From an uncultured Rhodothermales bacterium (GTDB lineage: Bacteria; Bacteroidota; Rhodothermia; Rhodothermales; VXPQ01), in the NCBI GenBank assembly GCA_964591285.1, contig CAZQAS010000016.1:1-37898 (forward strand): 37,898 bases of DNA, written 5' to 3'. A model generated the notes under the pieces. That model ran no database searches. It was not told where the DNA came from and worked only from the letters and a program-made list of their open reading frames with translations. Shown here in pieces: positions 1-30,808 of the stretch. Every line of letters begins with the position of its first letter. Positions within the stretch are counted from its first letter, which is position 1. A program made the translations under genes and the position numbers.

Positions 1-929
<929 letters not shown>

Positions 930-965: not shown

Positions 966-1547
966 TCAGTCCCCAAACTGCATCGACCTTCGCATGGCCA
1001 CACGGCCGCTGCGGGCGATCTCTGCGATGCCGTGTGGCTGCATCATGCCGATGAAGGCGTTAATCTTCTTCGTCGGACCCGTGAGCTCGAAGGTCATCGT
1101 TTCGGTAGTCACGTCCACGACCTTGCCTCGAAAGATCTCAAGGGTGTCCATCAGCTCCGAGCGGTTCTGCTTGGTGTACTTCATCTTCAGCAGGCAGAGC
1201 TCGCGCTCGACGTAGTGCTTTTCGGTGAGGTCTTCGACCTCGAGCACGTCAACCAGCCGGTTCAGCTGCCGATTCACCTGCGCGATGATCCGGTCGTCGC
1301 CCGTCGTGACAATTGTCATTCTCGAAACCGATGGATCGTCGGTCTCTCCCACGGCCACGCTTTCGAGATTGAATCCGCGCGCGGAAAATAGATTGATGAC
1401 GCGGTTGAGCGCGCCGATCGAGTTCTCCACCAGCACGGCGATAATGTGGCGCTGCTCGCGCTTTCGCTCATCCGAACCAATCGGCTCACCCTGAGCCTTC
1501 TTTCGGATGATCTGCTGCGGGGTAAGAGTGGTCGTGTTGTTACTCAT
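966..1547 (-). CDS. ilvN: acetolactate synthase small (regulatory) subunit
   Basis: 193-aa ORF with an ACT-domain N-terminus (HIIAVLVENSIGALNRVINLFSARGFNLESVAVGETDDPSVSRMTIVT). It lies between ilvB and ilvC on the same strand. Confidence 0.9.
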   Translation of the reverse strand: MSNNTTTLTPQQIIRKKAQGEPIGSDERKREQRHIIAVLVENSIGALNRVINLFSARGFNLESVAVGETDDPSVSRMTIVTTGDDRIIAQVNRQLNRLVDVLEVEDLTEKHYVERELCLLKMKYTKQNRSELMDTLEIFRGKVVDVTTETMTFELTGPTKKINAFIGMMQPHGIAEIARSGRVAMRRSMQFGD

Positions 1548-1569
1548 TCGCGCTCCCTATTCATTTTTT

Positions 1570-1711
1570 GGAGGTCGGAGGTCGGAGGTCGGAGGTCCGA
1601 GGTCAGATCTTGTAATAAACCCTGGCGATGAGAGTCCGACCTCTGACCTCTGACCTCTGACCTCTGACTTCTGACTTCTGACTTCTGACCTCTGACCTCT
1701 GACCTCTGACT
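1570..1711. repeat. inverted heptamer arrays (about 5 units GGTCSGA, 27-nt spacer, 11 units TCYGACY) in the ilvB-ilvN spacer
   Basis: 1570-1607 reads GGA GGTCGGA x3 GGTCCGA GGTCAGA. 1635-1711 holds 11 tandem units (TCCGACC, TCTGACC x3, TCTGACT x3, TCTGACC x3, TCTGACT). It is the same heptamer family as at 871-929. Confidence 0.9.
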
Positions 1712-1753
1712 TCTCGTCAATATCTCCCATCGCCCATTTTCCCCTATTCTCCT

Positions 1754-3553
1754 CTACACAAAGGCATTTGGCGTTAACCGCTTCGTGATCATCTCGTCCG
1801 TCGACGCGCCTGCGGGCACCATCGGGAAGACCATCTCTTCTTTGATGACGCGAAATTCCATCACGACGGGCCGGTCGTTGATCTCCCAGGCCTTCGCGAT
1901 CACGTCGTCGACGTCTTCCGGCTTCTCCGCGCGGAGGCCGGCGCAGTGGTGTGCTTCGGCCAACTTCACGAAGTCGGGATTCGTATCGGTCAGGTCCGTG
2001 TGGCTGAAGCGCTCCTCGTGGAAGAGCTCCTGCCACTGCCGCACCATCCCGAGGAAGTTGTTGTTGATCACGACGATCTTGACCGGCAGCTTGTGCGCGG
2101 CGAGAACGCTGAGTTCCTGCGCATTCATGACAAAGCCGCCGTCGCCGCTGATCGAGACGACCGTCTTTCCCGTGCCTCGCAGGCCGAAGGCGGCTCCCAT
2201 CGCGGCCGGCAGACTGAAACCCATCGTCCCGAGCCCCCCGGAGGTGATGTGCGAGCGCGGATGAAGGAACTTGAGGTACTGTGCGGCCCACATCTGATGC
2301 TGACCCACGTCGGTGACGACGACGGCATCGCCCTGCGTCTTCTCGCGTAGCCGCTGAAGCACGTACTGCGCACGCAGGCGGCCGTCCCCTTCGTCATACT
2401 CGAGCGGACACTGCTCGCGCCACGCGTCGATCTGTGCCAGCCACTCCTGCGTCGGCCGCTCATCAATCAGCGGAACCAGGCGTTCCAATACCTCGCGCAC
2501 GTCGCCGACGATCGCACAGTCGACGTAGACGTTCTTCGAGATGCAGGATGGATCGATATCGATGTGTACGATCTTGGCGTGCGGCGCCCATGACTCGAGT
2601 TTCCCGGTGACGCGGTCGTCGAAGCGGGCTCCGACGGCGATGATCAGATCGGAATTCTGGACGGCCATATTGGCGTACCACGTTCCGTGCATGCCGAGCA
2701 TGCCGAGCGAGAGCTCGTCGTCTTCCGGAAATGCACCCAGACCGTGCAGCGTAGTCGTGACGGGGATGCGTGATTTTCGCGCGAGCTCGGTCAGCAGCTT
2801 GCTGCCCCCAGAGCCCACGGCACCGCCACCGACATAAAGCAGCGGTTTGCGGGCCGCCCCAATCATGTCGGCCGCGCGCTGGATATTGGTGTCGTCGGGT
2901 CCCGCGGGTACGCCGTATCCGCGAAGCCCGATCTCATCTGGATACTCGAACTCGGTCTCCGCTAGAAGAACGTCTTTCGGCAAGTCCACGACAACGGGGC
3001 CCGGACGGCCGGTGCGCGCGATGTGATAGGCCTGCTTGACGGTCTTCGCGAGATCCTTCACGTCGCGCACCAGGAAGCTGTGCTTGGTGATGCTTCGCGT
3101 AACCCCGATCGTATCGCACTCCTGGAAGGCGTCGTTTCCGATCAGCGGCGTCGGGACCTGTCCGGTGAAAACGACGATGGGTACCGAGTCCAGGTAGGCA
3201 TCGGCGATTCCGGTGACGGTGTTCGTGGCGCCGGGTCCGCTCGTGACGAGGACGGTGCCGACCTTGCCGGTCGCCTTCGCATAGCCCTCTGCCGCGTGGG
3301 TGCCGCCCTGTTCGTGTCGCACGAGGATGTGCTCGAAATTCGGACTGATGCGCGCCATCTCGTCGTAGATTTTGATGACCGCCCCGCCCGGATGCCCGAA
3401 GACCGTCTCTACGCCTTCGGCTTCGAGTGCGCGGAGGAAAATCTCGGCGCCGCTCATCCGCTTGACTGAGGTGGGCGCCTGCTGCGATGGCTTCTGGCCG
3501 TTCGCGCCGTTCTCCGACGTGGATTTCGTGATCGTGTCGTGGTCCTCTTTCAT
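1754..3553 (-). CDS. ilvB: acetolactate synthase large (catalytic) subunit, ThDP-dependent
   Basis: The ORF track frame 1754..3712 contains MSGAEIFLRALEAEGVETVFGHPGGAVIKIYDE, GPGATNTVTGIADAYLDSVPIVVFTGQV and the ThDP motif SISGDGGFVMNAQEL. I place the start at the in-frame ATG at 3553 (MKEDHD...). The upstream 53 codons are Arg/Pro-rich and not AHAS-like. Confidence 0.95.
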   Translation of the reverse strand: MKEDHDTITKSTSENGANGQKPSQQAPTSVKRMSGAEIFLRALEAEGVETVFGHPGGAVIKIYDEMARISPNFEHILVRHEQGGTHAAEGYAKATGKVGTVLVTSGPGATNTVTGIADAYLDSVPIVVFTGQVPTPLIGNDAFQECDTIGVTRSITKHSFLVRDVKDLAKTVKQAYHIARTGRPGPVVVDLPKDVLLAETEFEYPDEIGLRGYGVPAGPDDTNIQRAADMIGAARKPLLYVGGGAVGSGGSKLLTELARKSRIPVTTTLHGLGAFPEDDELSLGMLGMHGTWYANMAVQNSDLIIAVGARFDDRVTGKLESWAPHAKIVHIDIDPSCISKNVYVDCAIVGDVREVLERLVPLIDERPTQEWLAQIDAWREQCPLEYDEGDGRLRAQYVLQRLREKTQGDAVVVTDVGQHQMWAAQYLKFLHPRSHITSGGLGTMGFSLPAAMGAAFGLRGTGKTVVSISGDGGFVMNAQELSVLAAHKLPVKIVVINNNFLGMVRQWQELFHEERFSHTDLTDTNPDFVKLAEAHHCAGLRAEKPEDVDDVIAKAWEINDRPVVMEFRVIKEEMVFPMVPAGASTDEMITKRLTPNAFV

Positions 3554-3904
3554 ACTGCTATATGCTCGTCGGCTGAGTGCTTCGTGTGGGTTGCGCCGGT
3601 ATGGCTGCGGGATGCCTTGGTGACGTCGACGGAACAGCCGCCGTTCGTAGGCGGAAACCGCCGGCCGGCGGGTCGTTCGCCAGAATGTTTCGGGGTTGGC
3701 GAGGATGCGCATAAACGCCCGCAGGTGCAGCAGAGATGCCGCAGCATGGAAAATTGGGTGCCGCTGGGCGCGGGCTTCCGTTCAGCAACCGTGCGTGGGT
3801 CTTTGGCATGCGCATCGTCGTTTCGGCTTCGTGAGGGTCAGCCCCTCAACCTCCGACCGATGCGTCCGCATACCTTGAGATGTGTTAAGGGATTGACCTC
3901 TCGC

Positions 3905-30671: not shown

Positions 30672-30720
30672 AAGCGTTCCAAGAACGTTCAACGTTCAAC
30701 GTTCGAACGTTCTAACGCTC
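30672..30720. repeat. tandem heptamer array AACGTTC (4 perfect and 2 degenerate units) in the mutS divergent intergenic region
   Basis: The sequence reads AAGCGTTC C AAG AACGTTC AACGTTC AACGTTC G AACGTTC T AACGCTC. Perfect units lie at 30684-30704 and 30706-30712. Each unit contains the palindrome AACGTT. Confidence 0.85.
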
Positions 30721-30808
30721 GACAATACCCGCAGCATTTCACGAAACCACAGAGCGCGTCGGATGTCAGATATATCAGGCCGTGAAGCCCTGCCAAACTG
30801 CATGTCTC

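What the first reader, a model, noticed from the sequence alone, without database searches (positions are those of the whole stretch)
1570..1711. Asymmetric inverted arrays of a heptamer (5 vs 11 units) filling the ilvB-ilvN spacer
About 70% of the 206-bp spacer between two co-transcribed genes consists of GGTCSGA x5 followed, after 27 nt, by the complementary TCYGACY x11. On the ilv mRNA (minus strand) this gives a 5' array rich in GAGG, which is Shine-Dalgarno-like. It also gives a 3' array of four CCUCC units, identical to the anti-SD core of 16S rRNA. The CCUCC array ends 23 nt before the ilvN start codon (CCUCCAAAAAAUGAAUAGGGAGCGCGAAUG). The arrays can pair in many registers. Possible roles are translational uncoupling or occlusion of ilvN, an mRNA processing or stability element, a protein-binding platform, or a slippage-prone microsatellite that tunes the ilvB:ilvN ratio. 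The plus-strand version carries repeated GGA motifs, reminiscent of CsrB/Rsm-type sponge RNAs, but that comparison is purely speculative.
Basis: seen in the sequence. Interest (0 to 1): 0.62.

Follow-up and report, generated by a model that had tools for sequence, protein, structure and literature searches.

The report
Heptamer-repeat hairpin between ilvB and ilvN
The repeat arrays are real, but they are one ordinary, gene-less copy of a widespread and fast-changing class of 7-base-repeat hairpins found between genes in many bacterial phyla and phages, not a control element specific to the ilv operon.

Summary
Observation confirmed. Window 1573-1607 holds 5 x GGTCSGA, then a 27-nt loop, then 11 x TCYGACY at 1635-1711, all inside the 206-nt ilvB-ilvN spacer. 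A second 4+4 copy fills the ilvN-ilvC spacer (871-929).

- They pile up 15-60x over single-copy depth in the soil metagenomes that hold this organism.
- Relatives with 79-83% identical IlvN have a 24-30 nt ilvB-ilvN spacer with no arrays and the same gene order.
- A 90% relative carries a different heptamer (GGAGATR) at that site. 98% relatives keep the element, but with changed units, changed unit numbers and fewer CCUCC motifs.

The element matches a known but unexplained class: convergent heptamer-array pairs, with the G-rich arm 5' in 39 of 43 pairs examined. Elsewhere, including a Rhodothermales contig with the same arms, such arms enclose a PF05635 (23S rRNA intervening-sequence protein) gene.

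The most likely effect here is a long imperfect stem in the ilvBNC transcript that could be cut by RNase III or block exonucleases. This is inferred, not shown.

The parts
1573..1607 (.). Left arm: 5 tandem heptamers (GGTCGGA x3, GGTCCGA, GGTCAGA). On the ilv mRNA (minus strand) this is the 3' arm, (GACCUCC)n, with four CCUCC motifs.
1608..1634 (.). 27-nt loop between the arms. It is too short to hold a gene.
1635..1711 (.). Right arm: 11 tandem heptamers (TCCGACC, then TCTGACC/TCTGACT). On the mRNA this is the 5' arm, (RGUCAGA)n. Six units have no partner in the shorter arm.
1712..1753 (-). Rest of the spacer next to the ilvB stop codon. On the mRNA it reads AGGAGAAUAGGGGAAAAUGGGCGAUGGGAGAUAUUGAC, which aligns with the (GGAGATR)x4 array of the 90% relative. 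I read it as a decayed older heptamer array.
1548..1572 (-). A-rich linker carrying the ilvN SD-like GGGAG (plus-strand CTCCC at 1553-1557). It is unpaired with the arrays in the minimum-energy fold.
871..929 (.). Second copy of the same heptamer family in the ilvN-ilvC spacer: 4 x (G/T)GTCRGA, a 3-nt loop, then 4 inverted units (three TCTGACY and one ACTGACC). It is orthologous in the 98% and 90% relatives.
966..1547 (-). ilvN (acetolactate synthase small subunit)
   Evidence: NF008864, E = 3e-65
1754..3556 (-). ilvB (acetolactate synthase large subunit)
   Evidence: TIGR00118, E = 2e-236
2..841 (-). ilvC (ketol-acid reductoisomerase); runs off the window end
   Evidence: NF004017, E = 6e-140

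Best explanation
The arrays are a gene-less member of the heptamer-array hairpin class: two convergent tandem arrays of a 7-nt unit, with the G-rich arm 5' on either strand. This class occurs between genes in many bacterial phyla and in phage contigs. Elsewhere its arms enclose small PF05635 (four-helix-bundle, '23S rRNA intervening-sequence protein') genes.

This copy most likely arose locally. The older, orthologous ilvN-ilvC copy lies 700 nt away and has the same unit family and the same arm-to-arm A/C difference. Replication slippage has since resized the new copy to 5 versus 11 units. It is not tied to ilv function.

Because it lies inside the ilvBNC transcript, it folds the mRNA into a stem of about 35 nt per arm, made of 6-bp helices separated by single A.C mismatches, with six unpaired RGUCAGA units. 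The most likely consequence is cleavage by RNase III or a block to 3'-5' exonucleases. Either would separate the ilvB, ilvN and ilvC segments, as happens when RNase III cuts the heptamer-repeat stem of the Coxiella 23S intervening sequence.

Shown: the anatomy, the wide distribution, the turnover among relatives, the arm polarity and the PF05635 association. Inferred: the local-copy origin, the slippage mechanism, and any RNA processing or effect on expression.
For: Anatomy and second copy.

Distribution:
- At least 120 loci across Verrucomicrobiota, Acidobacteriota, Bacteroidota, Cyanobacteria, Planctomycetota, Myxococcota, Xanthomonas and others.
- At least 114 viral contigs.
- Contig depth rises from 13.5 to 545-835 in run X1 and from 36 to 706-2123 in RNA run X8 exactly over the arrays, with heterogeneous flanks.

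Turnover among relatives:
- 98% relatives keep both elements with altered units, including a matched GATC/GATC change in both arms.
- The 90% relative has (GGAGATR)x4 plus a partial inverted copy in ilvB-ilvN, but keeps the RGTCAGA element in ilvN-ilvC.
- 79-83% relatives have 24-30 nt spacers without arrays.

Class features:
- The G-rich arm is 5' in 39 of 43 close inverted pairs built from many different heptamers. This matches the 'convergent' GGGAATC pairs of Xanthomonas (PMC4692102).
- PF05635 genes lie between inverted arrays in L033 (a Rhodothermales contig with the same GGTCAGA/TCCGACC arms, E = 2e-25), in L006 (E = 6e-37) and in L050 twice.
- The Coxiella IVS carries GACAGAT heptamers at its 5' end that vary in number between strains, and RNase III cuts within its terminal stem, at the start of the first repeat (PMC4990558).

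Transcription: no terminator or promoter signal in the spacers, and RNA contigs span ilvN plus the spacers.
Against: - In the 37.9-kb window, and in 11.3 kb of the 90% relative, heptamer arrays of this kind occur only in the two ilv spacers. A local, ilv-linked role is therefore not strictly excluded.
- The hairpin is weaker on the ilv mRNA strand (z = -2.1, A.C mismatches) than on the antisense strand (z = -5.7, G.U pairs). The same holds in the 98% relative. This argues against selection for the sense-strand RNA stem.
- Covariation is uninformative: 3 sequences, 1 compensatory pair and 3 broken pairs.
- No RNA-end data exist. The only RNA run is held as contigs.
- No PF05635 gene is present in the window.
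Confidence: 0.6

Rival explanations
1. Plain microsatellites. Each array grew in place by polymerase slippage, because heptamers are the favoured long simple-sequence repeat in bacteria. The inverted partner arose by template switching. There is no element identity, no partner protein and no function.
For: - Unit number and unit sequence differ between 98% relatives and among metagenome contigs.
- Each arm is internally homogenised but differs from its partner.
- Mrazek et al. 2007, as summarised in PMC4679880 and PMC4692102, found heptanucleotide repeats the most abundant long repeat class and proposed slippage as the cause.
Against: - The 39:3 arm polarity across unrelated heptamers is not predicted by slippage alone.
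- Neither is the repeated enclosure of PF05635 genes by such arms.
- The same RGTCRGA unit recurs in very distant phyla and in viral contigs.
Confidence: 0.22
2. An ilv-specific translational device. The CCUCC units mimic the anti-Shine-Dalgarno sequence and the GAGG units mimic SD. Together they occlude or uncouple ilvN translation and tune the IlvB:IlvN ratio.
For: - Four CCUCC motifs lie 22 nt upstream of the ilvN AUG, and there are many GAGG motifs in the other arm.
- In this clade the arrays are seen only in the ilv spacers.
Against: - CCUCC drops to 2 copies (L201) or 1 copy (L202) in 98% relatives.
- The 90% relative uses another heptamer and has an unrelated ilvN leader. 79-83% relatives have no arrays.
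- The same arrays occur next to unrelated genes in many phyla.
- The ilvN SD-like GGGAG is outside the stem.
Confidence: 0.05
3. A protein-binding platform. The phased 7-nt units, as DNA or RNA, are bound by a repeat-reading protein such as the PF05635 pentamer encoded inside the full-length cassettes. The gene-less copies depend on that protein in trans.
For: - PF05635 genes lie between arrays of the same design, including the same unit family in a Rhodothermales contig.
- The strict polarity of the arms.
Against: - Units differ from locus to locus, which is hard to reconcile with one sequence-specific binder.
- No PF05635 gene is in the window, and the genome could not be searched.
- No binding data are known to me, and my paper searches found none.
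Confidence: 0.1
4. The functional strand is the antisense (plus) strand. A very stable G.U-containing hairpin followed by a 77-nt C-rich, G-poor tract would stop or process antisense transcripts running into ilvB.
For: The plus-strand RNA folds much better than the mRNA strand: -79.7 kcal/mol (z = -5.7) against -71.1 kcal/mol (z = -2.1). The same is true in the 98% relative.
Against: - No promoter-like site drives antisense transcription here, and no U-run follows the stem.
- The asymmetry may be chance fixation of one transition per arm.
Confidence: 0.03

Closest known systems
Convergent GGGAATC heptamer-repeat pairs of Xanthomonas campestris / X. axonopodis (Rehm et al. 2015, PMC4692102), and bacterial heptanucleotide long simple-sequence repeats in general (Mrazek et al. 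2007)
   Same: - Tandem 7-nt units, mostly intergenic and often between co-directional genes.
- About 70 cases per genome occur as two arrays in convergent orientation on opposite strands, meaning the G-rich arm is 5' on both strands.
- Extensive length and sequence variation between close relatives.
- Function unknown.
   Different: - The unit here is RGTCRGA, not G-tract-rich, so no G-quadruplex is expected.
- The host is a soil Rhodothermales.
- Per-genome copy number is unknown here.
ORF-bearing 23S rRNA intervening sequences and PF05635 (S23p, four-helix-bundle) cassettes, e.g. Coxiella burnetii IVS (PMC4990558)
   Same: - A long terminal inverted-repeat stem.
- The Coxiella IVS carries tandem GACAGAT units (compare GGACAGA and GGTCAGA here) at its 5' end, whose number varies between strains.
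- RNase III cuts within the terminal stem, at the start of the first repeat.
   Different: - The loop here is 27 nt and holds no ORF.
- The host site is an mRNA spacer, not a 23S rRNA helix.
- Cleavage has not been tested.
REP/BIME elements in intercistronic regions (e.g. E. coli malE-malF)
   Same: Intergenic hairpins inside operons that can protect upstream mRNA from 3' exonucleases. They are dispersed and not gene-specific.
   Different: - REPs are single 20-40 bp imperfect palindromes with a conserved GTAG/CGTC head and a RAYT transposase partner.
- Here the arms are tandem heptamer arrays without that head.
- A RAYT could not be searched for.
Cyanobacterial STRR heptamers and TAACTGA direct repeats of Beggiatoaceae, Cyanobacteria and Bacteroidetes (MacGregor 2015, PMC4679880)
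   Same: Heptamer tandem arrays, intergenic, with a phylogenetically scattered distribution and a CTGA/TCAG-like core. A post-transcriptional role has been proposed but not shown.
   Different: Those are almost always direct repeats just upstream of start codons (169 direct sets against 1 inverted set). Here the arrays form an inverted pair with a hairpin.

Membership tests
Inverted heptamer-array pairs / heptanucleotide LSSR (Xanthomonas type) | Tandem head-to-tail 7-nt units, at least 3-4 copies | tested here: met
   TRF finds period 7 with 5.0 and 11.0 copies at 95-96% matches; unit parse.
Inverted heptamer-array pairs / heptanucleotide LSSR (Xanthomonas type) | Intergenic location | tested here: met
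   Lies within the 206-nt ilvB-ilvN spacer.
Inverted heptamer-array pairs / heptanucleotide LSSR (Xanthomonas type) | Two arrays in convergent orientation, with the G-rich arm 5' on each strand | tested here: met
   GGAGGTC arm first, then the TCTGACC arm. The same polarity holds in 39 of 43 pairs in fetched loci. Published description.
Inverted heptamer-array pairs / heptanucleotide LSSR (Xanthomonas type) | Length and sequence variation between close relatives | tested here: met
Inverted heptamer-array pairs / heptanucleotide LSSR (Xanthomonas type) | Many copies per genome | not testable with these tools
There are two copies in 37.9 kb. Metagenome depth spikes cannot be assigned to this organism.
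23S rRNA intervening sequence / PF05635 cassette | Long stem formed by terminal inverted repeats that contain heptamer units | tested here: met
   Folds; Coxiella comparison.
23S rRNA intervening sequence / PF05635 cassette | PF05635 (S23p) ORF in the loop | tested here: not met
   The loop is 27 nt. phmmer found no PF05635-like ORF anywhere in the window.
23S rRNA intervening sequence / PF05635 cassette | Inserted in a 23S rRNA helix | tested here: not met
   The flanks are ilvB and ilvN.
23S rRNA intervening sequence / PF05635 cassette | Excised by RNase III | not testable with these tools
   The only RNA run is held as contigs, so no end mapping is possible.
REP/BIME | Single 20-40 bp imperfect palindrome with a GTAG/CGTC head, and a RAYT partner | tested here: not met
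   The arms are 35-nt and 77-nt tandem arrays with no GTAG/CGTC head. A RAYT search was impossible.
MITE | Terminal inverted repeats plus a target-site duplication; empty sites in relatives | tested here: inconclusive
   Array-free spacers exist in 79-83% relatives, but they do not align with this spacer, so the ends and any duplication cannot be defined.
Intrinsic terminator | GC-rich stem followed by a U-run on the transcribed strand | tested here: not met
   On the mRNA the stem is followed by AAAAAA. The scan found no terminator in the spacers.
CsrB/RsmZ-type sponge RNA | Multiple GGA motifs exposed in hairpin loops; match to an Rfam model | tested here: not met
   The GGA motifs lie in the stem. 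Rfam gave only sub-threshold miRNA-precursor hits.

The most novel reading that the evidence does not exclude
Heptamer-array hairpins such as this one may be non-autonomous copies of a single cross-phylum element. Its full form would carry a PF05635 four-helix-bundle gene (or a GxxExxY nuclease-like gene) between the same G-first/C-last arms.

Under this reading, the encoded protein makes, maintains or reads the arrays. Copies that land inside operons, here both ilvBNC spacers and only those in this clade, would be cut by RNase III like 23S intervening sequences. That would set the relative stability of the ilvB, ilvN and ilvC mRNA segments.
Probability: 0.15. Interest if true: 0.7.

Novelty: new member of a known kind. 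Interest (0 to 1): 0.3.

Why it matters
For this locus, little. The ilv operon carries a passenger hairpin that probably has at most a modest effect on mRNA processing.

The class is more interesting. Heptamer repeats have been noted in bacteria since 1990 without an explanation. Three things seen again here give it concrete handles for experiments: the strict arm polarity (39 of 43), the cross-phylum and phage distribution of one unit family, and the recurrent PF05635 cargo. This copy would be a convenient small test substrate. It is 142 nt, sits inside a well-understood operon, and natural variants with 4-6 units and array-free relatives are available.

Tried and rejected
I laid 600-1672 instead.
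- RNA end mapping. Only one metatranscriptome holds the locus, and it is kept as contigs, so processing sites cannot be seen.
- Covariation on the ilvN-ilvC stem. With 3 sequences it gave 1 compensatory and 3 broken pairs, no better than shuffles. Inconclusive.
- Literature search for the exact heptamers GGTCAGA, TCTGACC and related units returned only unrelated primer hits.
- Rfam returned only sub-threshold miRNA-precursor hits, meaning a generic long hairpin. Terminator and promoter scans found nothing in the spacers.
- Enrichment of heptamer arrays next to ilvN in 80 IlvN-centred metagenome loci. Roughly 18 loci have an array adjacent to ilvN, but arrays are about as frequent at other intergenic sites of the same loci (rough count without gene calls). 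I make no claim of site preference.
- The G-quadruplex idea from the Xanthomonas paper was rejected because the units have no G-tracts.

Full report
**What is there**

The window's first 3.6 kb holds ilvB (1754-3556), ilvN (966-1547) and ilvC (2-841), all on the minus strand (NCBIfam). IlvN homologues place the organism in Rhodothermales, and its nearest relatives come from soil metagenomes.

The 206-nt ilvB-ilvN spacer contains three parts:
- 5 x GGTCSGA at 1573-1607
- a 27-nt gap
- 11 x TCYGACY at 1635-1711

A two-unit pattern, allowing one mismatch, matches 16 times in the window against 0.27 expected. All 16 matches fall in this spacer or in the ilvN-ilvC spacer, where a 4+4 copy with a 3-nt loop lies at 871-929. 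Minor corrections: the arrays alone are 54% of the spacer (69% with the loop), and the last CCUCC ends 22 nt before the AUG.

**Structure**

Both strands fold into a long hairpin.
- On the ilv mRNA, the 3' arm (UCCGACC)n pairs with (GGUCAGA)n as 6-bp helices separated by A.C mismatches. Six units are left over. Energy is -71.1 kcal/mol, z = -2.1.
- On the plus strand the same positions are G.U pairs and the stem is continuous. Energy is -79.7 kcal/mol, z = -5.7.
- The 98% relative shows the same bias.

On the mRNA the stem is followed by AAAAAA, not a U-run. No terminator-like or promoter-like site lies in either spacer. Rfam gives only sub-threshold miRNA-precursor hits, which is noise expected from any long hairpin.

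Contigs from a soil metatranscriptome run from ilvN into both spacers (records 26 and 30). This is consistent with co-transcription, though DNA carry-over cannot be excluded.

**Is it specific to ilv? No.**

These came from Verrucomicrobiota, Acidobacteriota, Bacteroidota, Cyanobacteria, Planctomycetota, Myxococcota, Nitrospirota, Omnitrophota, Chloroflexota, Actinomycetota and Xanthomonas, next to unrelated genes.
2. A scan of viral contigs hit its limit at 114. Some contigs carry up to six arrays.
3. In the metagenomes that hold this organism, summed contig depth jumps exactly over the arrays, with many different flanking sequences. In run X1 it rises from 13.5 to 545-835. In RNA run X8 it rises from 36 to 706-2123.

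**Relatives**

- Contigs with 98% identical IlvN (L201-L203) keep both elements at the same places. The ilvB-ilvN copy there has 10 and 6 units instead of 11 and 5. New unit variants appear (GGACAGA, GATCAGA, TGTCAGA), including one matched GATC/GATC change in both arms. Only 2 or 1 CCUCC motifs remain.
- A 90% relative (L204/L321) has a 92-nt ilvB-ilvN spacer with a different heptamer, (GGAGATR)x4, plus a partial inverted copy. The window retains a decayed trace of that array next to the ilvB stop. The same relative keeps an orthologous RGTCAGA 4+4 element in ilvN-ilvC.
- Relatives at 79-83% (L122, L123, L322) have 24-30 nt ilvB-ilvN spacers without arrays and the same gene order.
- More distant Rhodothermales (L125-L127) carry other heptamer or 14-mer inverted arrays at the same junction, of the GATGCGT/GAGACGT and GCGTATT types.
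- Metagenome contigs of near-identical strains differ from the window by gaps totalling 7-8 nt, about one unit.

So the site is repeatedly occupied by heptamer hairpins of changing sequence and length. The operon works without them. The SD-like and anti-SD-like letters are not conserved. Covariation on the three available ilvN-ilvC sequences is uninformative.

One caveat applies. In this window and in 11.3 kb of the 90% relative, the ilv spacers are the only places with such arrays. The simplest reading is a local copy. Both elements share the unit family and the same A/C difference between arms. The ilvN-ilvC copy is the older of the two.

**What class is it?**

Across all fetched loci I found 43 close inverted pairs of period-7/14/21 arrays built from many unrelated units. 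In 39 of them the first arm has G>C, and in 3 it has G<C. Because the search was strand-symmetric, this polarity is a property of the elements themselves.

It matches the published description of Xanthomonas GGGAATC repeats. There, about 70 sites per genome are two arrays in convergent orientation on opposite strands, mostly intergenic, and variable between close species (PMC4692102). Heptanucleotides are the commonest long simple repeats in bacteria, and slippage is the proposed cause (Mrazek 2007, as cited).

Notes from earlier agents of this scan suggested a link to PF05635 genes, so I tested it on my own loci.
- ORFs in the loops of longer pairs include clear PF05635 proteins: L006 (E = 6e-37) and L033 (E = 2e-25; TIGR02436, E = 1e-24).
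- L033 is a Rhodothermales contig, and its arms are (GGTCAGA)x5 and (TCYGACC)x8, the same family as here.
- phmmer found six PF05635-like ORFs in 823 kb of array-selected loci and none in 411 kb of other sequence. Four of the six are bracketed by inverted 7- or 9-nt arrays.
- One locus (L087) has a GxxExxY-protein remnant between RGTCGGA arms, but the hit is weak: 24.5 bits, below the 35-bit cutoff.

In the Coxiella 23S intervening sequence, which carries a PF05635 ORF, a 28-bp terminal stem encloses the element. Its 5' end carries tandem GACAGAT units whose number varies between strains. [quoted passage not shown]

**How it most likely works**

Shown: it is a gene-less, fast-evolving member of this class, it is transcribed within ilvBNC, and it is not a terminator.

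Inferred: it arose by local copying and was resized by slippage. On the mRNA it forms an imperfect stem of about 35 nt per arm, a plausible RNase III substrate or exonuclease barrier. Such a stem would uncouple the decay of the three cistrons, as with REP elements and intervening sequences. The better fold of the antisense strand, and the loss of the element in relatives, argue that any such effect is incidental rather than selected.

**Verdict**

The ilv-specific and SD/anti-SD interpretation is not supported. This is a new member of a known, still unexplained kind, and it is of modest interest in itself.

Noticed in passing
L033:1-610: A Rhodothermales MAG contig carries a PF05635 / TIGR02436 four-helix-bundle gene (E = 2e-25). 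It is bracketed by (GGTCAGA)x5 and (TCYGACC)x8, the same heptamer family as the ilv hairpins.
   Followed up: partly
L050:5200-5670 and L050:7100-7690: A Desulfosarcina chromosome holds two PF05635-like genes about 1.5 kb apart. Each is bracketed by its own inverted arrays: the heptamer GAAGCTG for one and the 9-mer CGTTAGGAG for the other.
   Followed up: partly
L087:2100-2500: (RGTCGGA)x7 and an inverted (TCCGACY)x3-4 enclose a truncated GxxExxY / PDDEXK_3-like ORF. The hit is weak (24.5 bits, below the 35-bit cutoff). This may be a second kind of cargo for such arms.
   Followed up: partly
all fetched loci (L001-L206): In 39 of 43 close inverted pairs of heptamer arrays, built from many unrelated units, the G-rich arm is 5' and the C-rich arm is 3' on either strand. 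The cause is unknown.
   Followed up: partly
window 1540-1760 and 835-970; L201:860-1070: In both ilv hairpins the arms differ by one transition per unit. As a result the antisense RNA has G.U pairs where the ilv mRNA has A.C mismatches. The PF05635 cassette in L033 shows the same sense/antisense bias.
   Followed up: partly
L125:2857-2909, L127:2249-2342, L126:110-128: More distant Rhodothermales have unrelated heptamer or 14-mer inverted arrays (GATGCGT/GAGACGT and GCGTATT types) in the same ilvB-ilvN junction.
   Followed up: partly
L250 (viral contig IMGVR_UViG_3300033076_001536): Six separate RGTCNGA arrays lie within 13 kb of one predicted viral contig. Several other viral contigs have three.
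   Followed up: no
window 30683-30722: A tandem array of GAACGTTC/AACGTTC units (period 7-8, about 5 copies), unrelated in sequence to the ilv arrays.
   Followed up: no
L121:870-1034: In an 83% relative, ilvN is followed by a long GC-rich repeat-built palindrome (CGCTTCGCTGTCGTTCG ... CGAACAAAGTGAGCGAAC) instead of RGTCAGA arrays.
   Followed up: no
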